Source of the DNA: Gnetum montanum
Lineage: Eukaryota > Plantae > Gnetophyta
Direction of reading: 5' to 3'
Assembly: GCA_015680685.1 (NCBI GenBank)
Contig: MNCI01001817.1
Coordinates: forward strand, 295,798 to 359,797
DNA length: 64,000 nucleotides
Of the stretch, positions 6,561 through 58,671 are shown in pieces (position 1 is the stretch's first letter; each line of letters begins with the position of its first letter). The position numbers were made by a program, and so were the translations under genes. A model generated the notes under the pieces. That model was not told the origin of the DNA and did not search any database. It saw only the letters and a list, made by a program, of their open reading frames with translations.

Positions 6561-6649
6561 ATTGAAAAGAAAAGAAACTTTGAATAAAAAGAAGGAGAAA
6601 TGAGAGAAGAGGTGATGGAAAGAAAAATGTACTTTCAAGATTATTAGTC

Positions 6650-13849: not shown

Positions 13850-15400
13850 CTCTTAACTCATTGAATAAATTATCTATGCAAGATAAAGAGGTACTTATTA
13901 TTCATAGTAATCTAATGTAGTTATTGATAGTAAATGCATAATATTATGCTAGAATTTTTCCTCTTAATGAAGAGACCATGAGCATGTCAAAGAAATACAC
14001 TTGGATGAATTAGAACCTCATCTAGTAGCTCTTGAAGTTAAATCTTTGGTTTAGACAACTTGAAATGAGACATCTTATGAATAACCTTAGAGATAAGTTC
14101 AACACTAGATTTGAGAGTAATTTTAAACTCAACATCACATCTTAAAGATAAAACAATTAACTCCTAATAAAAAAGATTAAAAAGCTCATGAAGAATAGGA
14201 ATTTTATTGATTCCAAGTGAAGAGGAAAATTCATTGATTAAAAATGGAAAATAGAAATGACCATTGTAAAATAGATGGTATAAAGATCTTGAAGAGATAA
14301 GATTCACATTAATCTATGTTGAGATACTTGAACACCAATATCTATCACTAGGAAAAATATCTTAGGATAACTACCTATGCTCCCCTAATAGCATGATAAT
14401 AAATCCATGTCCAAGATGATGTTAGATTGTCTTAGATTCATGACATAGATATCATTGATCTAGAAGACATCCTAAATCATCAAAGGTACAACTTCATAGA
14501 CTTAATCCACAATAACCACATTACTACTAATAGTGCTAACAAAAATCCCTTGAGCAAGAGAAAAACTCTATGAATCCAAACGTCTAATTACTCATATGTC
14601 AAACAAGTCATGAATAGTATTAGGATAAAAAATAATTAGAATGGTAAAATCTAAAAGTATATCTCTAAACTTCATCATAGTATTGGATTAAACATCCACA
14701 AGTTGATTTATCAAAGCATACACACAAGCATGCATCATAGTGCCAACTTGATTATCTATAGTTTTGCTAACTTATTGAGAATATTCATTGTGTGAATGCT
14801 TTGAATAGTTAAAATTATTGTGACCTAGCTACCCACAGTTGTGACAATTAAAAAAATTCTAATAGATGTGCCTAATCTTTTTGCAAGCATGGTAAGCAAT
14901 GGGCCCATGAGTGCCCTTACCACCTACAAACGACGACTACTACTACATACTAGATTCATAACATAAGGAATACTTGTATCCATCATATTTTTGATAAGAG
15001 TTTTAACTCCTCTTGTAATAATGATCATGATATGATTCCTTCACTTGCTAACTATGCTCCAAGTCCATTACATAAACATGTGTATCCTCATATGTATGAA
15101 GATGAAGAGGAAGAAATTGGTCCTTAATGGATACATGGAGATAATTAATGAAACTATTTACTTTGGCTCTCACATTGGAATATATATGAGGCACATACTT
15201 ACTCAACTCTAAAAACTAATAGTCATACTTGATCATGATGTAGTTACCATGGTAGAGGTGATAAAACTTATCTACTTTTACTACCATGTACTTTAAAGGA
15301 GAACATCACAATCCTACCAATGATGTGCCTTCTCTTGGAATTAGTAGGGGAACCTTTGAATTAGTAGGTTGCTATTTGAGTTTGATGCACATGAGTATAA
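13850..15400 (+). other. Highly decayed coding-like repeat, weakly similar to RC of 44000-44800
   Basis: Patchy similarity only (e.g. cttatctacttttactaccatgtactttaaagg vs ctcatctctttcttcaccatcatccttaaag). No recognisable domain. Confidence 0.25.
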
Positions 15401-15856: not shown

Positions 15857-16684
15857 TCTTGTAATACCCTCCTTCTTAGTTTTAGGTTGAACAACATTAC
15901 ATCTGATATAAAACCCCTAATGAAGGATTGTTTATATCAAGGAAATTTAAAATTAAAACAAACTAAGACTATGATAAGAAAGCAAAGAAAAAGTATAGTG
16001 AACTTATGACTAAAAGGAAAAACAAGAGATTATAACAATGGAAGAAAAAAAATATAATTAATTAATAAAAATACATACATACATACATACATACAAGAGT
16101 GAAAACTAAAATTAACTAAAAAGAGATAAAATTCAACAATACTAAAATATGTTTAGCCAAAAATAAAATTATAATCTAAGCACATGAGACATGAGATAAG
16201 GAATAATCTTATACATGTCTTGTTGACCTTTTGATATGTCAAAACCTTAAAGAAAATGAAGAATGTGGAAATGTATTTATAATCTTGTAGGAATAATAAG
16301 AAAATGTGACAATATGTTTGAATGAGAGCTACGTTGAAGATGTCAAAACAAGAGTTGAAATAAAAAAATGAGAGCTAGGATGCAAATGGGATCAATGAGC
16401 TAAATGAAGATGTTCTGAAAACTATCAAGATGCCAGAATGATAAAGAAATGCTTCAAATTTCAAAGTGATCTTGTAGGATAGACATCTTCAATTGATAGT
16501 AGACATATCACTCCTAGTAGAGACATCTTAGCGTAGATGTATCAAGATAGACATCTCAATTTTCAAATAGACATCTTTCTAGAATTGGAGTTGATTTCAA
16601 TTAAACATCTCAACTTTGAGACAGACGTCTTAATTAGCCATTTCCTAGGCATTGCAAAAATTCTGAGTTTTTAAAAATTCAAAG

Positions 16685-17166
16685 TGTGACATCCAATTCC
16701 TGGATGTCATAAAAACATGCTTGTTCATTGCTTAATTCATCGCATTATAATGGAATTACCATAAAATACTTGATAAATGAATAACTGGTGCATGGAATAG
16801 GAAAGAAAAATAGAGAAAACTTTTATTAATAAGAGTGGTATACTGTAATGCCCTCTAGGTTATATTCCCATGCTACTTAAGCCTTAGAGGCAATTTGGCA
16901 CTACCACGATGGTTAGGCTGTCCAATCGAAGGGGTGATTAATCCCTTCTTTACTTGCTTTACCCATCTCCTGTCACTTGCCTTTTCCAGGCTCCACAACT
17001 CCATGCCAGCATGACTCTAAACTTGACTTTAAATGGTATAGGTTAAACCCATTTCTAAGGGATACATGAATAATCATAACTCCTCATAATGAGTCAGTCC
17101 TTCATGTAAAGGTTAATTACATTTTTACAATACTTTTCTACTCTTAACAAGGGATGGAAAATTACA
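16685..17166 (-). repeat. 3' LTR of chromovirus (482 bp)
   Basis: TGTGACAT...ATTACA, colinear with 26452-26934 and adjacent to the PPT (RC aagggggtagat). Confidence 0.9.
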
Positions 17167-17369
17167 ATCTACCCCCCTTAAGAATCTAGCTTGACCTCGA
17201 GCACTTCTTTTATGTCCAACTGCTTAGTTGCTGCTTATTCATTATGTTCCTTAGCTTTAGCTTATTTATTATCCTCATTATCATCTATACAAAAAGACTA
17301 GAAATTATAAAATATAATTTATTACATCAATAATAAATACAATTTATCATTCAATATCATGATGATCAA

Positions 17370-20300
17370 AAAGTTGGGGGTAAGTATTAAGAATAAAATC
17401 CCTATTTTCTAAAGTCTAATGATTACAATTTGACCATTGAACAAGTACTTCATTAATAGTTTTATTTCATAACTTCTTGGTTTGATGCTTTTTAATGGCA
17501 ATGGGTTTAACTTCAAAGCTAGTGTTGGATCACAAGGGTAAAGTATTTTGGTCTAGCACATATTGCACATCATTTGTATGAAATTTCTTATGCAAACTTA
17601 CAATGAAAATTGGGTGAATTTTTAAAGTTGTTGGAAGATTTAACCAATATGCGACTTTGCCTATTCTTTTACAGATTTCAAAGGGTCCATAATATTTGGG
17701 ATGCTAATTTAGTATATTTTCCAAGTTTAAGAGAACTTTTGGTAGGTTTTACTCTCATTAGTACTTGATCTCCCACTTGGACTTCTTTCTTAAGTTGATG
17801 TTGATCTGCATATCCATTATATTTATCTTGGGTAGCTTGTAAATTTTGTTTAACTCTTGTGTCAATATTTTCCATTATTTTCATTTCTTCTTCCTTCAAT
17901 TCTATTCTTAAAGTTTGGTTTGCCCAAGTTAGTGATGTATGACAATTATGTTCATATATTACTTTAAATGGTGTTCGATGTATGGAATCTTGATAATTAT
18001 TATTATAGGTGAATTTTTTCAAATGCTAGTAATTCTCCCATGTTTTTTTATCTACTTCCAACATAGCTTTGTAGAATATCTTCTAATATTCTATTCACAC
18101 ATTTGGTTTATCCATTTATCTTTGAGTGGTAAGTTGTGCTAAATTTTAGTTGGGTTCCAAGATTTTTGAAGAAATTTTGTGAAAATTCAGATATGAACTT
18201 GGGATCTTGATTCAAAGTGTTAGATTTTGGACATCCATGCAACTGAAAAAATTCTTGTGTGATTTTTTGGGCTACTTCTTTAGTTGTGTTTGCAAATTTC
18301 AAAGCTATAAAATGTGCCACATTTGATAGATGATCAACCACTTAAAAAATTGAGTTATTTCCTTTTTGGTTATTGGTAATCCCACAATGAAATCCATGGT
18401 AACATCTTCCCATTTCTAGGTTGGGACTTCTAAAGGCTATAATAACCCACTAGATTTCCTTTGTTCAACTTTTATTATTTGGTAGGTTGAATAGTTTTTA
18501 ATGCATGAGGACACATCATTTTTCATTCTAGGCTAGAAATAAGATTTGTATAAATCATATAAGTCTTAATGTAACCTAGGTGTCATACATATGGTACTTC
18601 ATAGGCTTTACACAATAACCTTGGTCTCCAATTTCCTTTTGGTATACATACTCTTTGTTCTTTCATCAATAGACCATTAGAAGTAAGTTGATATTGAGGC
18701 TCAGAGGAAATGTTGGTTGGAATCTCCTTGAAATAAGAATCTTCTTTTATCCATTTCTTAATTTCTTCTTCCATATGGGGTCATTACCACACCTATCATC
18801 AAGTTCCACATTTTACTAAGGGCATCAGCTACTACATATTGTTTCCTAGGAACATATTTGATTTCAAAATCATATTCAACTAATAATTAGACCTATCATT
18901 GTTGTTGAGTATTTAAAATAGCTTATCTCTACAAATACTCTAAACTTTTATGATCAATTTTTAGCACAAATATTTTTCCATAAAGATAATGTCTCCAAAC
19001 TTTCAAAGCATGAACAATTGCTAGTAATTCTAAATCATGGGTCAAGTAATTTACCTTAACTCCTTTCAATTTACAAGATTTATAACATACCACTTTATCT
19101 TCTTGTGAAAGAACTACATTGATTCCTATTCCATGGGCATTTGTAAATACTTTAAATGATATTTATCAATCCAAAATTCTCAGAATAGATGCTATTGTGA
19201 GTAGCATCTTTAGTATGAGGAAAGCTTCTCTTCATTTTTCATCAAACTTAAACACACATTAGTCAAGGGGGCTACCAAAGTAGAATAATCTTTAATAAAA
19301 TGTTAGTAAAAACCTATTAAACCTAAGAAACTACGAACCATTGTATCATCTTTTAGTTGAGGACCATCCCAAATTGCACAAAATTTTTGCAATCCTTTCT
19401 TAGAAAGTATATGGTCCAAATAAGAGACTTCTTATTTAAAGAGTTCATATTTACTTAATTTTTCATGTGAGTAATGTTCTTTAAGAACTTCCATTGTAAT
19501 TTCCAAATGTTTGACATATTCTTCTCTTGACTTAGAGTAAACAAGTATATCATCCATAAATACTATAACAAATTGATTAAGATATTCATGAAAAATATTA
19601 TTCATTAATTTTATGAATGTTGCAAGTGCATTAGTTAATCCAAATGGCATTAGAACAAATTTGTATAATCCATACCTAGTTCTGAAAGTAGTTTTCTCAA
19701 TATCTTTCTCCTTAATCCTTATTTGGTGAGAACCAAATTTTAAATTAATCTTTGAAAAATAACATGCACTTGTAAGTTAATCAAACAAGTCATTGATCCT
19801 AGAAAAAGGATAAGTATTTTTAATTATCACTTTATTCAATGCCCTATAATTGATGCATAATCTTAATGTACATCTTTCTTTTTAATGAATAAGACTAATG
19901 TACCTCAAGGTAATACACTAGATCAAATTTTTCCTTCTTCCAATAGTTGATCTAATTGTCCTTTCAATTCTCTTAATTCAAAAGTGGAAAATCTATAAGG
20001 GTCTTTTGAGATAGGTTGTGTACCAAGAAAAATATCAAGTAGCATGTTCAATAAAACTTTTTGGAGGTAGTTCCCTAGTTTCACCAAATATTGAATATTT
20101 GTATTCCTCAAGTTCTTTTGGAATCTCAATACCTAAAGATTTCTAAGGTTGAGTTACTTTTACAACCAACATCATAACACCTTTCTTAACTAATCTTTTG
20201 GCTTGCTTAATGGTTATCATGTGGATTTGCTTTATTGTTCCTACCCCCCTTAGAACCCTAACTTTGTCAATGGTTGAGACTTTTAAAATATGAGTTACAA

Positions 20301-21820
20301 AGTGGGTAGTAATATCAAATTTTTGTAGGAAAGACATCCCTAAAATCTTACTGACATCACCTAGTTCAAATTCAAAGACATCAATGAAAGGCATGTCTTT
20401 CAAAGTGAAGGTAATTTCTTCGTACCTAGTATGCTTGCTCATGGTCGTTCCATCTACAAGTTCTATCTTAATAATTTTCTTGAAAGGTAAACTTGATTCT
20501 AATAACTTAATTAACTTTGAAGAAATAAAGTTATCACTAGTGCCACAATCAGTTAATTAATTGTTTTACCTTTTATTGAACCTTCAAAAATCAGTAAAGA
20601 AAATTAACTTAGTTGATGTAGAAATCTTCTTCAAGGCTATGGTGGTGGTTTGGAGTTTTCCTTTATTTATGTTTGGGTTGGATTTTTGATTTTTGGTTTG
20701 ATTGGTCCATTGTACCTTTGCTCATAATTTTGGATAATTTTGTTTGAAATTATCTTTGCAACAAATAAAACATCTTGATCTCGATCAAGCTCTCTTGGTT
20801 TGTGTTTCTTCGACCAATGCTTGTTGAATGGTAGTTCGTACTTGATTCGATTCTTCATAATCCTTAGTAATTCTTTATGCTTCATCAACTATTTGAGGAT
20901 TATGTGCTTATGTCTAGGAATGATATTGTGCCTATAGTTCACCAATAAATTTTGAAGCTAAATCTTCCTCATCTCAATGGCTTACAAATCAAGAGAGACC
21001 ATAGAATTACTTGTAGTAATCTTCTACAGATTACCTTCCCAATTTTAAGCAATCAAATCTCATCTTGCACTCTTTGAAAAAAGAATTTGATACAAATTTC
21101 TCTTCATAATCTCGAAAAAAGTTGAGCCAATTTATAATCAAACCTTAAGATCTCAGTCCATTCCACCATGTTGCCACAAGTCCTCCTAAATATAGGGAGA
21201 GGACTTCTAAACATTCTTGACTTGACAAATTCAACATATCAAAGTAATTTTCATTGTATCAAGCTCATCTTTTTCTTTGGCACCAAATCCAATGACTCCA
21301 TCATAATGATATAATTTTACTTTCTTGGCATGAACTTATGTTAGTGATTCTTGTGTTGCATTTTACCAGTTTTAGTATCCCTCACCTTCAATTTCTATTC
21401 TTTTATCTAATGAAGAGATATTGACATCCTAATGTCAAGTAGGTGGGGGTTGGTTTTAGTGTGGATCCCTAGGAAAAAGTTGATCTTAATCATGGTGTTG
21501 ATCCCTAGGTGGAACTAGGATTTGAAGGTTGAGTGAGATGGTTAGTTAATTGCTTGATGGAGTTTGAAAAGGAATCCATATTTTTTTTACACATTTGATC
21601 ATTTATCCTCTAACTTTATGATAATTTGCTAATTTCTTTGAACATATTCTGCATATCTATCCTAAACCCTTGATTTGACTGACAAAGCTCTTCTTGAATA
21701 CCCATAATCTAATTAATTTTATCCTCAAGAGCATTCATCTGATCATTGACTCAGGTCTCCATCGCTCTGCAATGTACTCTTTGGGTTCCAGACATCGGTA
21801 AATTGATGAAATCAGGCATG
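17370..21820 (-). pseudogene. gag-pol pseudogene with chromodomain
   Basis: Gag coiled-coil and CCHC remnant (~20730-20775); protease LTDCGTSDNFIS (~20530); RT MPFGLTNA...FVIVFMDDILVYS (19432-19650); RNase H; integrase VDHLSNVAHFI / YNNNYQDSIHRTPFKVIY; chromodomain INEVLVQWS...ENRDFILNTYPNF (~17370-17460). Confidence 0.9.
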
Positions 21821-22639
21821 TTGGCAATCCTTGGCCTCTATGGCCCTTTTTGTAGGTCTTGAGATAGTTAATTGGTTACAGAAAAGGTTGAACTATCATG
21901 GATTTCTACACGACCACAGAATCTTAATTATTTTAGCACCTTAAATAATGAATTAAAAGGTAATTTTTTATTATCTAAAGTCTAAATATGATCATTCCAT
22001 TATGTCTAGAGGGTTTAATTCTATTGAAATCAGTTTTTCTTTGGTTGAAAATGGACTTCAAAATCAAAAGTTATGGTTGTTTTAAGTTGCAAAAATTTAC
22101 ATGATTTTCAAAACTTCTTGAGAGGTCATCCAACCCAATTCTACACTAGGACAAGCATGCTTAATTATGGAATTTTTATCCCTATTGCTACCAAAGTGTC
22201 ATTATTTAATTTTTAATATTATTTGTGTGCATTCTTAATTTAAACTAATGGTTTGATTATAGTAATTTCAAATTTTCTGTCAATTGATGGGAATTTTGAA
22301 TTTTCTATTAGTTGATGGAAAATTCAAATCTTTCATCCATTGATGATGAATTTTTCCATCTCGCATAAAGTCAAGATGGTGGCAACAATGGCCATAGTGG
22401 CATGGTGGTGGTGGTGGTGGCATCCTAAGTAGAGATGATGGTGTTGGGTGTAGATTGGTAATAGTGAAAATGATGATGTGCTTGTGGGTAGATGGTAGCC
22501 TTTCCTGCCATGGGACGATGACTTGGAAGCATGCATTTGCAATGACTTTTGCTTTTTCTTTCTTACTGCACTCCTTAGAGGACTAGCACAACATGGGTGC
22601 ATTTGTGCATCTTTCATGGGGAGGGGGAAGGCTTGCATA

Positions 22640-23610
22640 GCTCGCACAAGGGCAACATAGCTTGCATGAAGCTAACAAGGCTAGCATAGGGCTAGCATAG
22701 CCTACACAAAGTTACCATGGCCTTGCAAGGGTTTGGGTGACCATTGTTGGGGCTCACATGCCCTATGTTGGGGTCCACACGACCCATGTTTGGGCCTATG
22801 TTGATCCAAGCAGGGCCTACATGGCCCTAGCAGGGCCAGTGTGACCTGCGGTACTCTTTTGGCTCACATGGTAAGGGTTTCTAGTGCTAGGTGGTGCTAG
22901 AAGTAGTTGTTATCATCAGTGTTAGAGGTTTTAGAGATGCCCTTTATGGGAGGCACTATCGTTATCATCAGTGTTAGAGGCACTAGAGATGCCCTTTATG
23001 GGAGGCATTATTGTTATCATTAGCATTAAAGGCGTTGGAGGTGCCCTTTATGGGAGGCACTATTGATGCTAGCAGGACACCAAAGGTGTCCTTTATGAAC
23101 ACCACCATCGATGCTCATAGAGCACTAGGGGACCCCCTTATGAATAGCACTGTTGGTGGCCATGTAGTATTGGGCGAGCCCTTTATGGATGATGTTGTCG
23201 GTTCTTGCAGAGCTCCAAGGAGCCCTTTTTGGGTAGTGCCATATATGCCCATTGGCACTATCAGTGCATGGTTGCAACAAGCATTGGAATGTGGCACATG
23301 GTAGTAGCAGAGTGGCAAGATGCAGCATGTAGTAGCAGTAAAGTGGTAGCTAGTAGCGAAGTTGTGGGAAGCAATGAGGCAAGGTAGTGCATGGTAGCAA
23401 CAGGGTCGAACTAGGAGGATGGTGCATGGTTATTAAAGGATAGTGACCCTCAAAATAAGGGCTATGCTATCCTCCTTACAGGGCCAACATGGTCCTTGTA
23501 GGGCCCACATAGCCTGTAGGCTAGCATGGCCCATGCAAGGCTTGCGTGGCCACTGTAGGGCTAACATGGCCTCCTACAGGGCCTACGTATCCTCTACTGG
23601 CTAGTGGTCC
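22640..23610. repeat. GC-rich composite tandem-repeat block
   Basis: Three 52-bp units (starts 22909, 22961, 23013) then four 45-bp units (23065, 23110, 23155, 23200) sharing GCCCTTTATGG. Flanked on both sides (22650-22870, 23470-23600) by degenerate ~20-22-bp units like CAGGGCCTACATGGCC. Confidence 0.85.
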
Positions 23611-23970
23611 TTGATTTTTTTAAAAGAACATTTGAGGCTTGGGGTCAAATTCGTAACCTCTTACTTTTTTGAGCTTTTTATTTTTTTAAACAAAAAATTT
23701 AAAAATTAAGTTAAAAATTTTTAAAAGTACTTTTTTTAAAACTACATGTAACCTAAGAAACATCGTATCTCCCAAACCATAAATCAGATTTTGACAAAAT
23801 TGGTAATGTTGAAATTGTCTTGTGGAACACTACATGTTGAGCTAAAGATAACACCATTTTGGTTGACCTATCAATCACAAAATTATGAAAAGTAAGCGTT
23901 AGCTTTATTAAATCATTAATTAACTTAAGTTGATACTTCTACATTTTCTCCCAAGGTTTTTGTTGTTCTT

Positions 23971-23978
23971 TATAAATA
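23971..23978 (+). promoter_or_regulatory. TATA box of the antisense accessory gene
   Basis: TATAAATA, followed ~25 nt later by a CA-rich initiator-like stretch and by ATG at 24096. Confidence 0.55.
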
Positions 23979-24095
23979 TGTGAAGAAAAGAAGTCTCTAC
24001 CCATCACAACACAACATTAGCAAAAGATTAAAGGATTCCTCTCAAAGATTGCAAGCAACATCAAGGATTTCAACCATTGACATCATGACCTCAAT

Positions 24096-26280
24096 ATGTC
24101 TTAGGCTTTTTCTAAAGATCCTTCTTCTCCTTCAAGTAGTTCTAGAACAATGTTATTACTACTTCCAATTGTGTGTGTAGTTTACTTGGGAAGGAGGAGT
24201 TTTAGTACCTTATAGCTTCAAGTTTATCTGAATTACTTATCTTTTCTATTTTTAAGCCACCATATTGCACAAGTTTACTAATGGAATGGTGTGATTAGTA
24301 TAATAAAAGTAAAAGTTTCGCTTCACAATTAATTTTTGGAGAATTAACAGTTATTCCCATTGACATTTGCATAGCCTTAGGTTTTCATCAATGGGGGGAT
24401 CCTTTTATTCCATTGATTTTCTCTTCTAAAGTTTGATTATTTTTCCAAAAAGAATTATCTGATTATGTTTGTGATGGCACTGTCCAAAATAGTCAATTCC
24501 TTCATAATGATTTCATTAATGAAATTCAATTTGAATTGTGCCAGTTAATCCATAGTAAGGTCTTATGGCATCAACACCAAACTTATGTTAGCATCCATTC
24601 TATTTATATACTTCATGATGTCATAATTGGTAGAGTTTATGATTGGTCACTGTTTTGTTTTACTGCTTTATATAATTTCATGAATGGAGTTGTTGCTACC
24701 CTACAAAATCCCAATAAACCTTATACCATATGCTAGGTACCCTTGATCATGTGTTTAATCCTAAGTTACAATCCTTCATCCAAACTCTTTAGTCATTACA
24801 ATCAAAGATAATGTCTTGAATTTCTTCAAGAGGATAGAATTTTAAAGAGAAGATTGAGGGTGGCAAGAAGGGTCAAATGGCTTTGCAACAGACTCAACAT
24901 TAGGAGCGATTATATATATTTCATTTTTTCACTTATGTTTCTTCATGTATTTGGTAGTGCATTTTGGGATGTAGAATGAACCAATCCATATTGCACAAAT
25001 TAGAGCTACGTAGTCTAAAGCTATTTAAGGTGCACAGATTGAAGACGTTCTAGGTGCTTCATCCTTTGGAAGGGTTGAATCTAGAACATAAATCAAACTT
25101 ATCACTTCAAGGTTTGTGTGTGTATATATATATATAATAGCCTACTTTATTATTTTACTTTGTATATTTGCTTTTCTAATGAAAAATTTCTTTTTATAGA
25201 GGCAACATACTAGGAAAGGTTCTAGTAGCCCAATAATTTTAAGTTCCAGAAAGAAAGAAAAAACTTGACAACAAAAAGGTACAAGAAAAGATAAAGGCAA
25301 GGAACTAGAGGTAAAATTAATTCTAAAGTTTGAATACTTTCCTTTTTCTTCCTTCTTCTTGTGTGATGTTCTCTTTTTATATTGCAGATCTCTATGGGTT
25401 AGGGCTACTTTATTTGGAAAATGGAGAGAGATGATACTACAGGTACAATTTCTAAATAAACTTTGATTCCTTCATCTCCCATTCCATCATCTAGATCACC
25501 TCATGTGCCATCTATTCATATGAAACCTATAAGAGATTCCTTACCACAAGTGGTGCTAACACTAGCTCTTGGGTGTGTTCTAATAATTTCTTCTTTTCCT
25601 ATCTTAGGTTTTTCCTATTCACTAGGATAGATGGTGGTGGCTACTGAAGAAGAACTCATGCTTCTTCAGAATCTTGGTTAACAAATTTTTGGAAACAAAC
25701 TCTACTATGTTCCTGAGGATATTTACCACATGCGAGAGTCCCAATCATGCAACTTCAAGGAAGACTATGAATTAGTACAAGCCAATGATCCATCATCTTT
25801 TCATCTAATTCCCAAGGATGCTCTAAAAGTTGTCAAAGATCTTGAGCAACTCTTAGGAGAATTGAAGTGCTACATGTTTGGATTTTCATCTGTAGACCTA
25901 TGGATAGTTTCTTTAAATTAATAATGATCGTCTTCAGGTGAGTAGCTCTTATTCTTTTCTCTTTCCTTTTTTTCTTTTTATTAGATTTTTTTGTTCATAA
26001 CTCATAATTTTAATTTTGTCTTGTGTAGAGGAAATAGAAAGAATGACAAAAAGACATGAATAATTGATCAATTTAGATGGAGATGCTAGATGTTCAACTT
26101 AAGAGAAGGGAGAAATCATCGGTTGCAACAAAAAGTGCCACTAAGTACATCAAGAAATTTTTTGATGGGTTGGTGGGATGCAAGGTAATGCTCAGCAAAA
26201 AGGATATGACTGATGAAGAATGAGAAGCATAATGAAATATAGTTTCAGATCTTCTCAACTCATTTCATGAAAACAAATGA
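24096..26280 (+). pseudogene. Antisense, spliced accessory gene inside the chromovirus leader (plant-mobile-domain/PF20167-like + basic + coiled-coil)
   Basis: One frame of about 250 codons (24149-24900), interrupted only by 5 stops that are each one C>T away from Q/R: ...KPPYCTSLLMEWCD*YN...GELTVIPIDICIALGF...TYVSIHSIYILHDVIIGRVYDWSLFCFTAL. GT-AG introns with pyrimidine tracts at 25112-25199, 25311-25387 and 25938-26028. Exon motif RKDKGKELE. The last exon is coiled-coil-like and ends TGA at 26280. AATAAA at 26392. Confidence 0.75.
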
Positions 26281-26451
26281 TCACTGTTGTGTTTCCTTAT
26301 TCTTTTTATTCCACATCTTCTCTATTCTTGTGTTCTACTTCTTCTTTTACATGTATTCTACTTGGATGTACTTTTGTTTTATTATAATAATAATAAAATA
26401 ATATTTTTCTTCTACTTTGGCTCTTGAATTATGGTTTTCTCAAATACCAAA

Positions 26452-26934
26452 TGTGACATTCTATTTCCAAATGCCATAAAAACATGTTTTTTTGTGGCTT
26501 AATTCATTGCATTATAACGGAAATACCATAAAATACTTGATAAATGAATAAATGATACATAGAATCAGAAAGAAAAATAGAGAAAAATTTTATTAATAAG
26601 AGTGATATACTGTAACACCCTTTGGGTTATCTTCCCATGCCACTTAAGACTTAGAGGCAATCCAACACTACCACCAAAATTATGATATCTAGCTGAAGGG
26701 GTGATTAGTCCCTTCTTTTCTTACTTCACCTAGCTCTCATCACTTGCCCTTTTCAAGCTTTGTAATTCCATGCTGACACAACCTCTAAACCTAGCCTTAA
26801 ATGGCATAGTTCAAACTCATTCCCAAGGGATACATAAATAATAATAACTCCTAATAATGAGACATCTCTTCATTTGAAGGTTAATTACATTTTTACAATA
26901 CATTTCTACCCTTAACAAGGGATGGGATGTTATA
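26452..26934 (-). repeat. 5' LTR of chromovirus (483 bp)
   Basis: TGTGACAT...GTTATA, adjacent to the PBS remnant and followed by TSD CAAAG. Confidence 0.9.
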
Positions 26935-29852
26935 CAAAGGGTATAAGATAAAGTGGAATTCTTGGGAAATGGGAAAGCATTGTTCAATGGATATAATTCA
27001 TTGTCTACATTAAAGTGATTTAGCTTTATTTTGTATTATTCTTATCTTTTGTATTTTTTTGTGTGAATTGAGAGCTTTATAGTAAGGAATTTGTAAATGA
27101 AGTTACTTTCTCTCCTTGATTTTTTTCTTTCTTTATTACCTTGTGGGGTTGATGTGCTTCTTGTGAGAAGACATCTTATGAGCTTGTTAGGATTTTACAG
27201 GATTGAGTGTGTTCATAGTGATGAAACACTCAAGTGTAGAGGTCATGTTTTACAAAGGTTGTGAGATCCTTGAAACTAGATTTTGAGCTTATTGGGGCCT
27301 TGTTTGGTTGAGTGTGTTCACAATGTCAAAATACTCTAGAGTAGAGCTCAAAATTTGTAAAGGTTGTGATGCCATCTAAACCACATTTTTCTAAGGAACA
27401 AAGTCTAGAGCTATGAAAGGATTCTACCCTCCAAGTGTGGAGGTAAGAAAGTTGGGAAACCATGTAAAAATCATGTGTGAATTTTATGGCTTTATTTGTT
27501 TTAATTGGGGAACTTATTCAACTCTCCTTCTAAGTTCTCAATCATCATGTCTAACATGTCTTAAATATGTCATAGCATAAAATACTAAAGCTAAAAAATA
27601 TAAAGTATTCATGAAATCTAATTAGTAACAAACACCCAAGGATCTTCTTATTCCACCTAGTACTATTAGTTTGCAAATAGAAAAGGGGGAAGTAGGGTGG
27701 TGGGGAAGGAGGAAGGGTGGTAGGGAATGGTATTATATAGTAAGTGAGGAACCTTTGCATCTCATCTAGTTATATCAAGAGCAAGTATCATGGCGGTTAG
27801 ATGAAGGTATGCTAACCTATAAAGTATTTTAGTATGCATAACCAACTAAACATCCAAGAGCACACATCAAGCATCAATCAAAACATCATATAATTTAACA
27901 AAATTGAACTACCTACTTCATTTACCAATCTATAAACAAGGAGAGCATGCACCATCCTTAATTTTGATATGTGTGAATTTGTTGTCATGTATACTTGTCC
28001 AAGTTTTTAAATTCCAAATGACAAACCAAATGCCAAACTATCATGTACATGGATTTAGTTATTAGTCTTAAAGTAAACTACTATTTCTAGAGGCACCACC
28101 TAGGAATAATATCTAATGTTTTGGAGACATCTAATAAAAAGGGCTAATGATCTATGGATCATCCTCTCCTATAAGATGGATTCTATAATGAAATTCATAC
28201 TAATACATCATAGTGAGAGTTAACTATCAAATAGCTTTAAGGGGTCCATCTCAAATCGACCACATAAATTGGTGCTAGCTCATGAGAATTAACATCCATA
28301 CAAGTATTCAAATATGAAAAATCAACCATTGATGATGGAGGGACTCAAGTAACATCCAATATGTACAAATGATTTGCAAGGTCCAACACTTAACTCTAAT
28401 TGAAATTGACATGTTAATCAAGCCCAAGTTTAACAAACTAAGTCAAATGAAGTTTGAAGATATCAAATTAAGCTCTAACAACAAAGAAGGACCAAGAAAA
28501 ATAAAATTGAAATATCTTAACCTAAACATCACTTTACCATGACTAGTGGTGAATGATCACAACTTAACCATGACTTGATCACTACTTGTGCTATTCATAG
28601 AATAATAATTAATAGAAATTATGATGAAAATCCTTGAGCATGGATAGACCACAACCTATCCATGACTTATGGTGGATGGACCATAACTTCATCACAACCT
28701 ATGGTTAAGAAGAATGAGTAAAAAGAACACAAGATGGAAAAAATGGTAAAGGTGAAGTATATCATGATCTTACCATGACTTTTGGTTGATATAAAAACTT
28801 GCATAATAATGATGATTGGCAAAAAATACAAGAAATACTTCACAAATTGTGGTGACTAAGTACAAATAGACAACAACTCATTATACTATAGGTTTTGTAA
28901 TATAAAAATAGAAAAATGCATAGGATAGCTGAAGATTGATTATGACCTTACCATAACCCATGGTAAATGACCACAACCTAATCATGACTTGTGATCAATG
29001 AAAATAGTCATACCATGATGGATTCTAGAAGAAGAATTGAAAAAAAAAAAAAAAGAGACAAGTAAACACTAAATAATCATCAATGAACAGTAGGGGCATA
29101 AAGGAAAATTCATAGCAATTATAATTGACTTAGAAAATGTGGGAAAAGTAATCAATAAAGTTAACGATACTAGGATGAAATCCAAACCCTTATAAAATTT
29201 TTAAAAACTCATAAAATTTTAAATATTTAGGCTCTTATAAAATTATTAAAACCCAATAGAACTTATGATGAAATGACCATGATGATATTAAAACATTGGA
29301 TAATGAGTATTACTTATGTCCTAGTTAGTTGGTGATTAATTCTCACAAAATGCTTAGAACCTAAAATTGATGAATTACATAAAATTATAGTTGAAAGGAA
29401 CAACAAAATAGAATATAAAAAATCTCACAATACTACACAAGTAAAGAAAAACTAAATTCTTGATCAAAATTTACATAAATCTGGATAAAATTCAACAAAA
29501 CCCAACCCATGCTAAATATGCATGAAATCCTATGAGTTGAAATGAATAAAAAAATGCCAAGATTATTCACCTAGAAAATCAAAGTACAACTCCACAACAA
29601 CACATAAAACCTAGCCACAAATTCTCATGGTGCCATGCTCATGAATCTTCAAAGCTCCACATACCTACATAAGTCTTCAATCTTGCAACAGCTCCAAATG
29701 CAAGAAATTGGATGCCAAAGTATCTAATTAAATGAAGTATGGAGTTTTCTGGAAAACATCCATAAAATCCATCATAAGATAACTAGATAGTTTCTTAAAA
29801 CTAAAACATAATTAAAGAAATATATCAAGAAATATCATGTAACATATGTTAC

Positions 29853-35661: not shown

Positions 35662-38484
35662 TGATAAGGGTCTGTCTAGTTTTGGACTAATAGAATATAT
35701 CATACAAATCACAATGCAATCTAGCCCTAAGCTTCAAAGACGATGTTAAGTGAATTACCAAGAACACTTTTGTATGCTCTTACATTCAATAAATATAAAA
35801 AATATTATAACACATGATACAAATGAAAACCTAGCTTACCACAATGAGGAAGCTGAGAGAATATTTATAATTTTATATTTTAAAATTTTTTATGGATATT
35901 CTTATCATAAATAACAAAATAAACATAAAATATAAATTCATCACAATCTCTTGTGTGAATAGGTACAATGCTTATGTTGCAATCCCTCTTTGGAATAAGT
36001 GTAATACGACACATGAAATGTAATTAAAATGGTTCTTAGTCATAGCCTTGATGGTCCAACACCATACCATATAGTTCTAAGTTTTTTGGGTAAGGAATGA
36101 ATCATTGAAGCTCAATGAAATAGAAGTTAAATAGATTATTTTATTTTTATGTTTAAATTATTAATGGTGAAACAAAGAAAAAACATGAGCTTTATTCACC
36201 ATGATGGACTTTGCATAAACCAAATGGTTTAAGGATTTATAAGCAAGGTAGCACTTTGACAAAGTCTAGTTATACTTATAAAAGTGATGTCTCAAAACAC
36301 ACATGAGACAAGGAAAGGAATTAACTTACATAAAAAAGAAAGAGTTCATCACACAAATTAGATGCCAAAAATCCAAATAAAATCCAAATTAAGACGAATA
36401 TATGACTAAGTTATGTATGAGAGCTCATTATAATTATTTATAATTTTTACAATGTAATTGTAAAAGTTCACTAATGCCTAAGTATTAAGAAAGATCCATT
36501 ATCCCAACCTTGACCAGTTAAAATACACCTTTTAGCACTTTGGCCTGAAATTAGGCAAGTAGAGGGTGTGCTGATGGGGATGCATTCATACCCCTTCATT
36601 CATGTTCCTACACTAACACAATGTAGTTAATGCACCTCCCTAAAGTCACACATTATATAAGGGATCCTTCGTCAAAGTTGGAACTTAAGGGAACATGTTG
36701 GGGAAACCATAGGACATTCAAATAAATCTAGAATCATCATAAGGATCTTAGTATCATGCATATAATCTCAAAATATGATAGAGGTACTAGGGTGCATCTT
36801 GGGAGATAAAGAACCTTAATTGAACATGCTATAATACAAATATAGGGCATGTGAAACACTTTCCAAATCCAGGGCTTACAGTCAAAATACAAATTGCCAC
36901 TAGATATCTCATCATTTCCCTAGGACTTAGTAAAGGTAGTCCCATAGCTTTAAAACCTAAGAGATAAAAATAAGGACTAGAAACATGACAAGATCAATGT
37001 AGAGGAATTAAAGATATACAATATAGACCATGAATACATTACAATACAAGCCACCTCACTAAGAAGAACTAGGGGATGGTGGTAGAGAAGAAAATTACCC
37101 TAGCAAGCTTGCGTGGAAGATGAAGAAGCTAGAAGGATAGGTCTTTGTAGCACATCATTTTCATCTACATCTTCTTTCATGTCATCCATCTACAAATCAT
37201 CTCTTGCCAGTTCCTCTAACACTCAATTAGAAGATCTTGAAAGGACATGTGCTCAAAATAAAAGATTAGAGCATGCAACTTTACCTCTAGATCTCTCTCT
37301 CAAGGATAATCTCTCATGTAAAAGCATTGGATCAAGTGATTGATGTTGTTCTTTCTATTCTTTTAGGATTGGTGATTCTTTTTCAAGATCATAAATTGAG
37401 TACTGAGATCTCTCAATCTCTTTCCAAGTAGGTCTATAGAATCTTAAGTGTAATTAACTAAATATGATGAGCTATGAAAATGCTAAAAATTAAGGTGAGA
37501 TCCCCAAGTCATTATACTATCATTGCAAAAAATTACCATAGGAACAATGATAAGTATAATTATTGGGGGCATAAGAGAAACATAATCATAACTATGAAAT
37601 CAAGGCATGCATGGGTAAGTAAAAATAGTATGAAAATAATTTAAATAACCATCAAAATTATAAATTACATACCTAAATTGATGCCTCTCCTCCATAACTA
37701 AGTTACAAGATACTTTTCTTGAACCACATGAACAATGCAAATGGAAAGAACAAGAAGAAAAAAGGCTTATGAAATTCCAAAGAATCCAACCAAGGATCAA
37801 ATCAAACAAGCTACAAAAGAGAGAAAGGAAACAGAAACATTAAAATATTATCTTGGATGACATTAAAACTTATGAAATTAGAAAAGTTAGAAATAAATAG
37901 AGTACCCCAAGGTCAAAAAAATAGGTACAAGTGAGGTACGGTGGAAAAGGAGTGTCATGATCAAATTGTGAAGCTCATAGAGTCAAAACTTAGAAAAGTG
38001 AGAGAACAATCAAGTGATTTATGCTATGTAAGCACTACCATTACTAGGAGATAAGCTTGAGCTTACTTTCTTACAATGCTAAGCCACCAAAGATTTACAA
38101 GTTGATCCTTCCCATAGTAGGCACCTATCTTTCTTTTCCTTGTAACATTTATGGGACACTCATGGATTCCCAATAGCTAGTGAGACCTTAACATAAAATA
38201 TAATTACATCCCTTTGAATGACCAAATCTCATCCTCTACTTTGCCTGATTGACTTCATGTCATACATAGTGATGCATAGAATGGAAAAAAATGCAGAATG
38301 AATGATGAAAAAGAAAGAAGGTGAAAGTGCAACATCACCAAATCCCTAGCCAACCACTCAATTAGCTCATGGAGGTGAGCACATCCTAAACCCTTTAAAA
38401 GATCCACTTTTTTTCCTTCACTACTACTTATCCATATCATAGGGATAGACCTCAAAGTGCTATTTTTTAAGTGCAAGAACATAT

Positions 38485-41400
38485 TCTTGACCTTTTGGTA
38501 TGCCAAAACCTTAAGAAAAATGGAAAACAAGGATGCTTGTATGGTTGTTGTGTTTGTAGGGTAATAGCTTGGATTTGGACAAAAGGAGAGCTCAAGGACA
38601 TCTACAAGATATCAAGAAAGCTGGCAAAAGTTCAAAGTGGATGGACAAGGAACAATGACCTCAAAGCTCAACTCCATTAATTAAAGGAAATCCTTATTAT
38701 TGAGGAACTCATTGCAAAAAGACATCTCCAAGAAATAGTAGATGTCTTTCATCAAGCAAAGATGTCTCTTTGATGATGAAGATGTCTTGGATAATTTGAA
38801 GGCTACTTAGAAGAAGATGTCTTTCACAAACAGTTGACATCTTCCTTGTGGAGAAGATGTCTCTCCCAAATGGAAGTTTGATATAGAAAGACATCTCTAT
38901 CTCGAAGAAGACATCTCTCCCAAATGGAAGTATGATACAAAAAGATGTCTTTATCTCTAAGAAGACATCTCTAGTAACCATTAAATAGTCATTTCATAGA
39001 TTCCAAGGTGATTTTTGAGACATTTCGGCTATAAGAAGACTTCATTCTCTTGGGAAATGTGAAAGGATTGGGAACTATCAAGTGTCAACATCAAGAAATC
39101 ATTATATACATCATTCTATTGCTCTTGTACCTCATTGTACTATCTTTTGTACTATTGTAAGTGGTCAAAGTATGTTGTACCTCAAAGTACAAGGATCAAA
39201 AAAATTAGTTGCATCCTTTCCTTGTAATTTTTGTTTCTCTCTTGTTTACTTACAAGGTTGATGTGCTTCTCTAGGAAAGGCATCATCTTTGAGCTTGTTG
39301 GGATCCTACAGGATTGAGTGTTGGTGTAGCACCACAACATTCCAAAGTAGAGCTCAAGTTGTAAAGGTTGTGGGATCTTGGAAACCATATTTTAATCTTG
39401 TTGAGACTTTGTGAGTTTGAGTGGATTTGTGGTGTCAAATCACTCCTGAGTGAAGCTTAGAGCTTGTATAGGGTGTGGTACCCTTCAAATCGCATTTTGA
39501 GATAACAAAGTCTAGAGGTATGCTAGAGAACTATCCTTTGAGTGTGGACTACCCAAGTTGGGGAACCACAGTAAATTTGATGTGTGCTTTTACTGATTAA
39601 TTTTTAATTAGGGGACCTATTCATTCTTGCCCACCCCCCTCCCCCCACACGCACCCCTATTTCTAAGTTCAATGATCCTCAAGTGGTATTAGAGCCTAGT
39701 ACTCTTTTTCATCATTAACTTCAAGAGTGAACAATGAAGGGAACATATTATACAAAGGCACCCATCTTCAAAGGATTCGAATTTGTCTATTGGAAAGCTA
39801 GAATGCAACGATTCTTCAAATATATGGAGTTCAAAGTTTGGGAGTCCATCTTGGAAGATTACACAATGCTCACTGATAGGTTCATTAGAATCATAAAGCC
39901 CTGCAAAAAATGGAATCAAGAAGAAAAAGATAAGTTTATGTTTGAATCAAAAGCAAAGAATTGTTTATAGTGTGCTTTAAATAAATTTGAGTTTCATAGG
40001 GTAGTTGGAGGCAAAATGGTCAAATAAATCTGGCAAATACTAGAGGCTACATATGAAGCAACCTCAATAGTTAAACAATATTGTTATTTTTACAAAGTGA
40101 GTATGATAGGGTAAAAATTAGAGAAGGAGGAAAAATAAAGGATTACTTTTCTATAGCCAATGATCTTGTTGTGACCATCAGAGGTACTAGCAAAGATCTA
40201 CTAGAGCGTGAAGTGATTATTAAAATGATTAGAACACTCTAACAAGAGTTTAGGCCAAAGGTCATAGCCATGGAGGATATCAAAGATTTTTCAACTTTGA
40301 AATTTGAAGAACTTCAAAGGCCTCTCATTGCATATGAAATCAACCTCAGAAGTGAAGGAGCTATTTAAGAAAAACCCATCACTCTAAAGACTACCTCTAA
40401 GGAGAAGGAGATCAATGAGCATGATGAGGGTAGTGAAGATGAGATAACTTTCCTTTCTAGAAAGCTATGACTATTGATAGAAAGAAGAAGCAAGGGCTCA
40501 AATAAAAAAAGATAAAATCCCTTCAAAGGTAAAGAGAAAGGAAAATTTTTTTCAAATTTTGATTCTTTTTCTATAGAATGTTGGGTTTGTTGTGAAAGAG
40601 GTCATATGGCCTTTGAATGTCATAGAAATAGAAGGTTGTATCAAAAGAACAAATCAAATGAAGAGATGCATAAGACCAACTTTTACACTTGTTGGGAAGA
40701 TGGGGAGTAGAGTGAAGAGGAGGTGGAGGATGATATGAAAAATTCTCATCTCATTTGCATGGCCCTTATTTTTGATGACACTGAATCATTAGATAATGAT
40801 CTTAATGAGAAAGAAAGGTTTGATCTATTATGTAATGAGCTTTTTTCTTTTCAAAATCTTTGCAATAAGTTAAATAAAAAAGTCAAAAATAAGGATTAGG
40901 AAATCTTCTTGTTGAATCTAACTATTTGTGATCTTACTAAGAAAATATCAGACCTAAGGGTTGAGAATGAAAAGATAAACTTGTCTTATGAACAGGCCAA
41001 AAAATAGAAATTGTAGATGTTAAATCAATGAATCAAATGCTAGTAAAGGGAAAGGAATCCCTTTAGATAGTACTAGGAAAAGGAATAAGTCCACATGATA
41101 AGAGTGGACTGGGATGTTGTACATAAGAGAAACCACCTTCAAAAAACCCATCATAATCATATGATCCTCCATAGGATAATGCTACCACATCAAAATTAGT
41201 ATGGAAAATTGATTATGTATAGATTGATGGTGTTTCTTTAGTTATCTCTATGCTCCTTGTTTTTTTTTATTTTTACATTGTCTCCCACATACCAAATTTC
41301 CTTGAATCTTAGTGCTTTTATCCTAGTCCTTGGATGCCATAGGAATTTATATTTCTTAATATTTTTCTTTATTATTTTAAGTCATCCATTTTCTTAAGTT

Positions 41401-42559
41401 TTAGACATCACCAAAAAAGGGGAGATTTTTGACCTTTTGGTATGTCAAAACCTTAAGAAAAATGGATAACAAGGATGCTTTTGTAGTTGTGTTTGTAGGG
41501 CAAGAACTTGGATTTGGATAAAAGAAGAGCTCAAGGACATTTACAAGATCTCAAGAAAGCATGCGAGAGGTCAAAGTGAATGGACAAGGAACAAATACCT
41601 CAAAGATTAAGTCTAGTGATAAAAGGGAATGCTCATTATTGAAGAACTTATTATAGAAAGACATCTCCAAGAAACAACAAATGTCTTCCATCAAGCAAAG
41701 ACGTATGCCTGATGATGAAGACATCTTGGCCAAGTTGAAGGTTGCTTAGAAGAAGACATCTTTCAGAAATAGTAGACGTCTGCCTTATAAAGAAGATGTC
41801 TTCCTTGTGGAGAATATGTCTCTCCTAAATGGAAGTATAATATAGAAAGATGTTTCTCTCTTGAAGAAGATGTATTTAGTGACCATTGGATAGCTATTAC
41901 ATGAATTCCAAGGTAATTTTGAAAACATTTAGGCTATAAGAAGACTTCATTCTCTTGAAAACTATGAAAGGATCGGGAACTATCAAGTGTCAACATTAAG
42001 CAATCATTGTATACATCATTCTATTATTCTTGTACCTCATTATACTATCTTTTGGACTATTATAAGTGATCAAAGTGTGCTATACCTCAAAGTACAAGAA
42101 TCAACAAAATTAGTTGCATCCTTTCCTTGTAATTTTTGTTTGCCTTTTGTTGCCCTATGGGGTTAATGTGCTTCTTGTGGGTAGGCATCATCCTTGATCT
42201 TATTAGGATCCTGCAAGATTGAGTGTAGGTGTAGCACCACAACACTTTGAAGTGGAGCTCAAGTTGTAAAGGTTGTGAAATCCTAGAAATCACATTCTAA
42301 GTGAGTTAAGACATTGTGAGGTTGAGTGGATTTGTGATATCAAATCACTTTGAAGTAGAGCTTAGAGCTTGTACAACATGTGGTACCCTTCAAACCACAT
42401 TTTTGGAGAAAAAAAGTCAGGAGGTGTGCTAGTGAATTACCCTCTAAGTATGGACTACCCAAATTGGGAAACCATGTTAAATTTGATGTGTGATTTGGCT
42501 AATTAATTTTTAATTAGGGGAACTTATTCATCCCTCGCTTCTAATTTTAATGATCCTCA
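38485..42559 (+). mobile_element. Gag-only SIRE/Maximus-like copia element (TR-GAG-like)
   Basis: LTRs 38485-39681 and 41427-42559, TSD CATAT/CATAC, PBS-Met TGGTATTAGAGC at 39684, SIRE-type PPT AAAAAAGGGGAGAT at 41413-41426. No PR/INT/RT. Confidence 0.88.
39734..41220 (+). pseudogene. copia gag pseudogene
   Basis: APIFKGFEFVYWKARMQRF (DUF4219-like), ESKAKNCL..ALNKFEFHRV (UBN2-like), zinc knuckle CWVCCERGHMAFEC (~40580), coiled coil, DKSGLG (~41098). Confidence 0.85.
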
Positions 42560-54944: not shown

Positions 54945-55013
54945 GTCAACAGCTCCATCGACATGGCCACATCAACTAGGCCCTGTCGATCTAGCCCAAA
55001 AGTTCTATAAATA
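54945..55013 (+). promoter_or_regulatory. Internal LTR-like promoter (motif cluster + TATA) upstream of the env-like ORF
   Basis: ccatcgacatggccacatcaactaggccctgtcgat...CTATAAATA (55005-55013) mirrors the LTR U3 gcatcgactaggccccatcaa...aacatggcccc...CTATAAATA. Confidence 0.6.
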
Positions 55014-55463
55014 CCATCCAACACTTTGAAATGTTTTTTCATTTACTTCAAAATAAGAGGGAATTTTTTGAAATTTTTTAAAGTCCAAAACCTTCTAGAG
55101 CCCATAACTTTCATACTATTTTTACAAATCACTTCATTCTTCAATCCTATAGCTATTGGAAGTAAGATCTTACTTGTGGGGGCCACAAACATTAAGGTTT
55201 TTGATGAAAAATTTTCAATATTTTTCTAACTCTCCCAAAGGGTTAATAAATAAAATATATTAAACCATCAATTTCTAAGAGTTTAACCCTTCCAAAAAAC
55301 TCGTAAAATTTAAATTATTTATTAATAATAAAATAATATTAAAATAATCAACTAGACCATGATCACAACTTAGCCAAAGTGTAACTACCCTAAGATATAA
55401 GGTATTTCAAATGTTTCAAAGTTACACATTAAGTGCTAATCCTTGGTCATGTTATGATTATAG

Positions 55464-58320: not shown

Positions 58321-58623
58321 TCTTCTCCATCATATTCACACTATCAGAGGAGAATGTGTTTGTTAAATCTTATCCTACTATTTAATTTTATAGTCTTGAA
58401 TACCAAAAATTTTTGTAATGATTGTATATCCATACACTTGGGCACTTAGTGTTTGTTTGTGTTTGTTTATGTTTGTTGTATGTGTATTATCAGTTAATAA
58501 TTCCATACCTTCCCAAACTTTTGAATAACTTAAGGATGTGTTTTCATTTAGTCTTGGGGTTATTTTGAGTAATGGATTTGCTGCATCGACTAGGCCCCAT
58601 CAATGCATGATTTGATGTGTTGA

Positions 58624-58671
58624 NATTGGAAATAGATTAATTATTTATTCATGCATTTAATATTTTATTCN
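58624..58671. other. Probable assembly/gap-fill artefact
   Basis: The 46 bp between two N's is an exact copy of 58881-58926 and replaces the TATA segment seen in the 5' LTR. Confidence 0.8.

What the first reader, a model, noticed from the sequence alone, without database searches (positions are those of the whole stretch)
23971..26400. Chromovirus carrying a complete antisense, intron-containing accessory gene between PBS and gag
Seen: within a TSD-bounded element with chromodomain integrase, about 4.6 kb separates PBS (26438) from gag (~21820). On the opposite strand this holds TATAAATA (23971), ATG (24096), a ~250-codon first exon broken only by C>T-type stops, three canonical introns (25112-25199, 25311-25387, 25938-26028; possibly a fourth at 24904-24957 with a mutated donor), a basic RKDKGKE exon, a coiled-coil last exon, TGA (26280) and AATAAA (26392) just short of the PBS. 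Known: extra ORFs are typical of non-chromoviruses (Athila env-like, Tat antisense ORFs, Ogre ORF1), whereas chromoviruses normally have a short leader. Inference: antisense orientation lets introns survive reverse transcription of the genomic RNA, so this looks like an element-encoded, separately transcribed gene. Its DI..ALGF and YDWS.F...L motifs recall plant-mobile-domain/DUF1985/PF20167 proteins, so a chromatin or anti-silencing role is a testable guess.
Basis: partly seen in the sequence, partly recalled or inferred. Interest (0 to 1): 0.88.

Follow-up and report, generated by a model that had tools for sequence, protein, structure and literature searches.

The report
Fossil spliced antisense gene in chromovirus
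An old, mutation-riddled plant jumping gene carries the broken remains of an extra intron-containing gene written backwards ahead of its main genes; similar DNA recurs in many diverged copies in four related organisms, backward extra genes in this position are already known, and a role in shielding the element from silencing is only a guess.

Summary
The element is real: 482/483-bp LTRs (81% identical), a CAAAG target-site duplication, and gag-PR-RT-RH-INT ending in a type II-like chromodomain. On the opposite strand, between PBS and gag, lies a decayed spliced gene. Three GT-AG introns check out, the long exon is stop-depleted (P=0.003), and splice phases chain. DNA runs from four organisms hold many diverged copies of the segment, and intron 3 is retained in them. 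The gene is not complete: ATG 24096 is out of frame with the long exon, spliced frames carry many stops, and the last exon needs a frame break. Four RNA runs gave no junction reads. No protein relative was found (Pfam, PDB, 1.84 billion representatives). One PMD motif matches 9 of 16 positions, the best in the window, but the test was post hoc. What may be new is several introns plus a PMD-like domain in a chromovirus. Verdict: new variant of a known kind; function inferred, not shown.

The parts
16680..16684 (.). Target-site duplication CAAAG (left)
16685..17166 (-). 3' LTR, 482 bp
17167..17179 (-). Polypurine tract
17370..17700 (-). Integrase C-terminus: SH3 plus type II-like chromodomain (decayed)
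   Evidence: PF24626; own profile and tblastn; no Pfam chromo hit
17700..20649 (-). pol PR-RT-RH-INT, with stops and frame breaks
20700..21820 (-). gag (decayed); PF03732 match about 20944-21198
22372..23625 (.). GC-richer spacer with short tandem repeats (52 bp x 3.1 at 22907-23065); covered only at near single-copy level at 80% likeness
23626..24095 (+). Repeated upstream region with TATAAATA at 23971-23978; likely promoter and 5' UTR (inferred)
   Evidence: the TATA motif alone is chance-level
24096..24257 (+). ATG and short first segment, in a different frame from the long exon; intron or frame break unresolved. Contigs in 3 of 4 runs skip 24095-24148
   Evidence: table 5
24258..24903 (+). 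Exon B, 215 codons with 4 stops; PMD-like motif at 24338
24904..24957 (+). Candidate intron with GA donor
24958..25111 (+). Exon C, frame uncertain
25112..25199 (+). Intron 1, GT..AG, 88 nt
25200..25310 (+). Exon D, 32% K+R; possible nuclear localisation or DNA contact (inferred)
25311..25387 (+). Intron 2, GT..AG, 77 nt
25388..25937 (+). Exon E: S/P-rich linker then a stretch heavily covered by diverged copies; may hide a further intron at about 25550-25607
25938..26028 (+). Intron 3, GT..AG, 91 nt, retained in diverged copies
   Evidence: table 8 records 7, 14, 22, 23, 31
26029..26280 (+). Exon F, with a frame break before TGA 26278-26280
26281..26437 (+). T-rich 3' region with AATAAA at 26392-26397
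26438..26449 (-). Primer binding site, decayed tRNA-Met-like (canonical form recalled)
26452..26934 (-). 5' LTR, 483 bp
26935..26939 (.). Target-site duplication CAAAG (right)

Best explanation
This is a dead copy of a plant Ty3/gypsy chromovirus carrying the broken remains of a spliced gene antisense to gag-pol between PBS and gag, likely a standard accessory gene of its family. Inferred life cycle: the genomic RNA runs from the 5' LTR through the segment backwards, so the splice sites are not recognised and the introns are copied into each new insertion; a separate internal promoter would make a spliced plus-strand mRNA ending just before the PBS. The product was probably a nuclear protein with a PMD-like helical domain, a basic patch and a helical tail. 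My preferred function is that it would bind the element's own DNA or chromatin and counter silencing, as VANC does for VANDAL transposons. Shown: element, introns, coding imprint, repetition with intron 3 kept. Inferred: transcription, linkage to the LTR in other copies, PMD identity (about 0.5), anti-silencing role (about 0.25). The confidence below is for a family-borne antisense spliced gene.
For: Element anatomy. Intron composition and clustering; stop depletion of exon B, P=0.003, similar to the element's own pol. Splice phases link the best frame of D to the open frame of E and into the open start of F. At 80% likeness in DNA runs of 4 organisms, median summed contig depth over 24044-26342 is 525, 651, 140 and 1749, against 12.6, 25.7, 3.1 and 18.6 over the adjacent spacer; near-identical pieces have depth 4-9 (the tool warns depth is not copy number). 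Diverged contigs bridge the donor or acceptor of intron 3 in all 4 runs (records 7, 14, 22, 23, 31). One diverged contig runs from exon F to 26423, 15 nt from the PBS (record 32). No inverted or direct repeat of 10 nt or more bounds the block. A PMD motif pattern read from Ikeda et al. 2017 (PMC5418596, supplement rows) scores 9 of 16 at 24338 in the open frame, the best in all six frames of the window; 0.10 such hits expected in the window, 0.002 in the segment. MAIN/MAIL1 PMD resembles the VANC DUF1985 domain structurally (passages).
Against: No listed contig bridges gene and LTR or gene and gag in a diverged copy (32 of about 53,600 pieces shown). Gene-region depth is only 8-22% of gag-region depth, so part of the family may lack the segment or it diverges faster. 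Exon C's chain frame is its worst frame, and the start and the end need further breaks. No Pfam match for any accessory piece; none in PDB or in two word-index searches; the only hit among 1.84 billion representatives is a spurious PKD-repeat match. The PMD motif test was post hoc, and a second motif scored 8 of 23, chance about 0.24. Four RNA runs (about 1.9 Gb read each) gave no splice joints and 4 of 2557 laid reads at 95% likeness or more.
Confidence: 0.7

Rival explanations
1. The segment belongs to a separate repeat (a DNA transposon gene or another retroelement's accessory region) that was inserted into, or recombined with, only this copy or a small subfamily.
For: The 1.25-kb spacer between segment and gag has near single-copy cover, so continuity is not shown; gene-region depth is 8-22% of gag depth. 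The window is a nest of insertions. PMD-C occurs in MULEs.
Against: No TIR or direct repeat of 10 nt or more at the block edges. The 3' end sits about 40 nt from the PBS, and a diverged contig reaches 26423. No transposase-like Pfam hit.
Confidence: 0.15
2. A host gene captured in antisense, introns intact, that hitch-hiked through the family's amplification without function.
For: Introns point to an origin in a host or DNA-transposon gene (inference). The middle exons are less covered by diverged copies. No expression seen.
Against: The frame of exon B is as open as pol's. Promoter-side and 3' regions are repeated along with the exons. No host-gene relative was found.
Confidence: 0.1
3. Over-reading: AT-rich leader DNA that happens to look like exons and introns.
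For: TATA and AATAAA are chance-level. Exon C does not fit the chain. No protein homolog.
Against: Stop depletion P=0.003; 3 of 8 plus-strand intron-like segments fall within 920 bp; phase chain; best PMD motif in the window lies in the open frame.
Confidence: 0.05

Closest known systems
Tekay chromoviruses with 5' extra ORFs (REXdb, PMC6317226; sunflower Tekay group 2 and Poaceae RIRE3/RIRE8/Retrosat-2/FRetro3, PMC11728184)
   Same: Chromovirus with a long leader holding an extra gene; 5-bp TSD, tRNA-Met-type PBS, size about 10 kb. REXdb lists 5' antisense eORFs in 12% and 5' sense in 33% of 782 Tekay. The sunflower 5' product is predicted nuclear with a C-terminal helix.
   Different: REXdb counted only uninterrupted ORFs of 250 codons or more, so intron-split genes like this one (longest exon 215 codons) would be missed. 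Its domain table lists no Tekay eORF, and PMD only for Ogre. The sunflower ORF is labelled (+), and that paper has no mention of introns or antisense. Clade placement of this element is unresolved.
PMD-bearing eORFs of Tat/Ogre non-chromoviruses (PMC4408406, PMC6317226, PMC5418596)
   Same: Antisense or 5' extra ORF with PMD, in some lineages followed by a coiled coil; one matching motif here.
   Different: Those are non-chromoviruses, mostly with the ORF 3' of pol. PMD membership here is unproven.
brtn of Boty/BcGypsy1 in Botrytis cinerea
   Same: Additional antisense gene in a Ty3/gypsy element (passages in PMC7264820 and PMC8365987); unchecked scan notes describe intron-containing versions in fungal chromoviruses.
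   Different: Fungal, located between pol and the 3' LTR. The original paper (Zhao et al. 2011) was seen only as a reference title.
Grande gene23 and Retand TRP28 antisense ORFs
   Same: Antisense accessory gene with its own promoter and a nuclear product.
   Different: Non-chromovirus, 3' position, different domain; the Retand survey never uses the word intron.
VANC anti-silencing proteins of VANDAL DNA transposons
   Same: Working model only: DUF1985 is structurally like PMD.
   Different: DNA transposon; no DUF1985 hit here; no functional evidence here.

Membership tests
Ty3/gypsy LTR retrotransposon | LTRs, TSD, PBS, PPT and PR-RT-RH-INT order | tested here: met
Chromovirus | Chromodomain at the integrase C-terminus | tested here: met
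   Own profile from 6 chromodomain-bearing relatives aligns through the domain, and tblastn with P0014 covers 17700-17371 at E 2.7e-7; Pfam PF00385 itself did not hit
Chromovirus | RT closest to chromovirus RTs | tested here: met
   Listed hits about 60% identical, 8 of 120 annotated with PF00385; two other pol remnants in the window match the same queries at only 29-36%
Tekay clade | RT phylogeny places it in Tekay | tested here: inconclusive
   36-row tree; the window row is a long branch in no supported set; no clade-labelled references were available
Tekay clade | tRNA-Met PBS, 5-bp TSD, type II chromodomain, size 5.6-20.7 kb | tested here: met
   10.25 kb; these features are shared with other clades
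PMD (PF10536) | Profile match above the gathering score | tested here: not met
   No hit at E up to 1 or 10 on the decayed copy
PMD (PF10536) | N-terminal GE-x-T..D..LG motif and downstream Y-x-W motif in order | tested here: inconclusive
   Motif I 9 of 16, best in window; motif II 8 of 23, chance about 0.24; post hoc
PMD (PF10536) | Fold similarity | tested here: inconclusive
   Single-sequence model, pLDDT 40.9, too poor to search
DUF1985 (PF09331) / PF20167 | Profile match | tested here: not met
Element-encoded accessory gene | Present in many copies | tested here: met
Element-encoded accessory gene | Same position in other full-length family members | tested here: inconclusive
   A diverged contig reaches within 15 nt of the PBS; no listed bridge to LTR or gag
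Element-encoded accessory gene | Purifying selection (dN/dS below 1) | not testable with these tools
   No genome held; contig sequences are not returned
Element-encoded accessory gene | Spliced antisense transcript | tested here: inconclusive
   No joints in 4 RNA runs, with 2-26% of each run read
VANC-like anti-silencing factor | Sequence-specific binding and loss of silencing at its own element | not testable with these tools
   Needs experiment

The most novel reading that the evidence does not exclude
A chromovirus lineage captured an intron-rich PMD/MAIN-like gene backwards into its leader and spread it to hundreds of copies as its own VANC-like anti-silencing factor: a chromoviral PMD, a multi-intron retrotransposon gene that ORF-based surveys cannot see, with the fast-evolving tandem-repeat spacer beside it as its binding target.
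Probability: 0.2. Interest if true: 0.72.

Novelty: new variant of a known kind. Interest (0 to 1): 0.45.

Why it matters
The main survey of extra ORFs in plant LTR elements counted only long uninterrupted frames, so spliced antisense genes are probably undercounted; a 2020 review asks for exactly such transcripts to be looked for (PMC7264820). If the domain is PMD, it extends PMD beyond the Tat/Ogre lineages into chromoviruses and bears on the open question of whether PMD moved from hosts to retrotransposons or the reverse (PMC5418596); introns would favour capture from a host or DNA-transposon gene. As a single dead copy it shows no function.

Tried and rejected
No own genome is held. No RNA holder listed in the run search. 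RNA peaks at 25955-25992 and 26372-26408 are poly-T/poly-A artefacts (tables 3 and 7). Seven and eight short stranded reads near 24489-24504 in X16 and X18 fit only partly and were given no weight. Word-index protein searches with exon B: 0 of 185 and 0 of 36 candidates. phmmer on 1.84 billion representatives: 1 hit, a bacterial PKD-repeat protein scoring by six summed short matches; rejected. PDB sequences: 1 hit at E 0.28, chance. Metagenome scans: 0 of 92 stretches confirmed for exon B and 0 matches to an LTR pattern. Viral contigs with RT: 0 of 66 in a wrong frame, my error, and 0 of 28 in the right frame. Three reads and two were also in wrong frames; chromodomain and protease were redone. 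Single-sequence AlphaFold model pLDDT 40.9; no fold search run on it. No language-model atlas result was obtained for exon B, so remote family identity stays open. RT tree unresolved; of 108 aligned hits, those under 135 aligned residues and near-duplicates above 93% were dropped, leaving 36 rows with the window. The sigma-70 scan is irrelevant for a plant. Earlier-findings look-ups by sequence, place and plant/Tekay words returned nothing. Paper searches for a spliced antisense gene in a plant chromovirus listed none; the library lacks most subscription papers, including Steinbauerova et al. 2011, which surveyed such ORFs and was seen only as a citation. REXdb supplements 1 and 3 (per-element table, sequences) were too large to read and may list intron-bearing Tekay 5' antisense ORFs.

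Full report
1. The element. The finding lies inside a 10.25-kb LTR element on the minus strand. Its LTRs are 16685-17166 and 26452-26934, with 407 of 505 aligned bases identical and K2P 0.23. CAAAG flanks both ends, the PBS is at 26438-26449 and the PPT at 17167-17179. Reading broken frames with X gives gag, protease, RT, RNase H, integrase core and SH3 in Ty3/gypsy order. Pfam misses the chromodomain, but a profile from six chromodomain-bearing relatives aligns through it, and it resembles the type II form in a Tanacetum hit. RT hits are about 60% identical plant and unnamed chromovirus-type proteins. A 36-row tree leaves the window on a long unsupported branch, so the element is a chromovirus, Tekay-like in its features, with clade unproven. 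The host is not identified; CpG depletion, contig sets of 1.6-3.6 Gb and the RT hits fit a large plant genome (inference).

2. The antisense gene. The three named introns are GT..AG, 77-91 nt, 52-59% T against 16-37% in exons B-F. A crude filter passes 8 plus-strand and 12 minus-strand segments in 64 kb, and three of them are these, within 920 bp. Exon B has 4 stops in 215 codons against 14 and 26 in the other plus frames (shuffle P=0.003), about as open as the element's own pol; 5 of 262 windows outside the element match that. Splice phases link B-C-D-E-F, landing on the best frame of D, the open frame of E and the open start of F. Against this, exon C's chain frame is its worst, ATG 24096 is out of frame with exon B, and the terminal TGA is out of frame with the start of exon F. 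Other copies differ from this one by small indels at several sites (table 4), so the original frame cannot be read from this copy alone. 'Complete' is wrong: this is a fossil. The TATA box is chance-level by itself, and the type of stop codon is uninformative.

3. Is it a family feature? No genome is held, so I laid contigs of four DNA runs from four organisms on 20700-26940 at 80% likeness. Median summed depth over the gene is 525, 651, 140 and 1749, against 12.6, 25.7, 3.1 and 18.6 over the neighbouring spacer, where only near-identical pieces lie. Depth is not copy number, but the gene and its upstream region are clearly repeated in diverged form. Diverged contigs bridge a splice site of intron 3 in all four runs (records 7, 14, 22, 23, 31). 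None of the 15 joints shown (of 753) removes a named intron. For introns 1 and 2 only near-identical pieces are listed. One diverged contig runs from exon F to 15 nt short of the PBS (record 32). No listed piece (32 of about 53,600) bridges gene to LTR or gag, and gene depth is 8-22% of gag depth, so linkage in other copies is likely but not shown. No TIR or direct repeat of 10 nt or more bounds the block.

4. Expression. Four RNA runs of the same species label, about 1.9 Gb read each (2-26% of the run), gave no joints; 4 of 2557 laid reads were 95% alike or more, and the depth peaks are poly-T artefacts. That is expected for an old silenced family and says little about its active past.

5. 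The protein. No family or relative was found: Pfam, PDB, two word-index searches, metagenomes, and 1.84 billion representatives, whose single hit is a spurious PKD repeat. A single-sequence fold was unusable. PMD sequences in the supplement of PMC5418596 (7 rows seen) share an N-terminal motif; a pattern read from them scores 9 of 16 at 24338 in exon B's open frame, the top score in all six frames, with 0.10 expected in the window and a maximum of 8 in 12 shuffles. The rows were found with terms chosen from this sequence, so the test is post hoc. A second motif lies 83 codons on but is weak (8 of 23, chance about 0.24). PMD-like is therefore a fair lead, about even odds.

6. Mechanism. Shown: the layout, coding imprint and repetition. 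Inferred: antisense orientation hides the splice sites from the genomic RNA, so introns pass through reverse transcription; an internal promoter would drive a spliced mRNA ending near the PBS, as for maize Grande gene23 (PMC7264820). The introns suggest capture from a host or DNA-transposon gene. A basic exon and a PMD-like domain point to a nuclear, DNA- or chromatin-binding product. Since PMD resembles the VANC DUF1985 domain, self-directed anti-silencing is my preferred function (about 0.25). Convergent transcription could instead regulate the element through double-stranded RNA, as the same review notes.

7. Prior art. REXdb (PMC6317226: passages, section 9, supplements 4 and 5 read) gives Tekay 5' sense eORFs in 33% and 5' antisense in 12% of 782 elements and none for the other chromovirus clades; PMD appears only for Ogre; only ORFs of 250 codons or more were counted. 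Sunflower and grass Tekay 5' ORFs are described in PMC11728184 (passages and section 9). Tat PMD plus coiled-coil eORFs are in PMC4408406 (passages). brtn is cited in PMC7264820 (parts 1-2 of 3 read) and PMC8365987 (passages). PMC11963269, PMC5418596, PMC13547354, PMC13317346 and bioRxiv 10.1101/2024.09.27.615353 were read as passages. Unchecked scan notes report many spliced antisense genes in fungal chromoviruses. Seven searches listed no paper on a spliced antisense 5' gene in a plant chromovirus, but key subscription papers and two REXdb supplements were out of reach.

8. Verdict. The several introns and the possible PMD domain are the parts that could be new. New variant of a known kind; interest 0.45.

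Noticed in passing
window 15907-16684 and 26935-29422: Three-layer nest: the chromovirus sits in a decayed copy of the ~1.1-kb repeat at 38483-39624/41425-42531, which itself interrupts a repeat that is contiguous at 4354-6593.
   Followed up: partly
window 38483-42531: Two ~1.1-kb direct repeats, 80% identical, about 2.9 kb apart, with no pol match between them: possibly a non-autonomous LTR element.
   Followed up: no
window 46369-59419: Direct repeats of ~850 bp (81%) about 12.2 kb apart enclose a plus-strand pol remnant at 50869-52921 that is distant from chromovirus queries; probably a non-chromovirus Ty3/gypsy element.
   Followed up: no
window 60758-62917 and 13891-14238: Further decayed pol (plus strand) and a protease-region fragment (minus strand).
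   Followed up: no
window 22372-23625: The GC-richer tandem-repeat spacer is covered only by near-identical contigs (26 differences in 1199 nt in run X6; 10 in 297 in X8), so this insertion is shared by related organisms and is far older than their split; the spacer seems to diverge fastest among family copies.
   Followed up: partly
window 25550-25607: Unlisted intron-like stretch (GT..CTAAT..polypyrimidine..AG, 58 nt) inside exon E.
   Followed up: partly
window 26382-26424: Contigs in run X10 show local duplications around the AATAAA region beside the PBS (table 5c).
   Followed up: no
whole window: CpG observed/expected is 0.14 (0.07 in pol), with TG and CA in excess: heavy methylation-driven decay.
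   Followed up: yes
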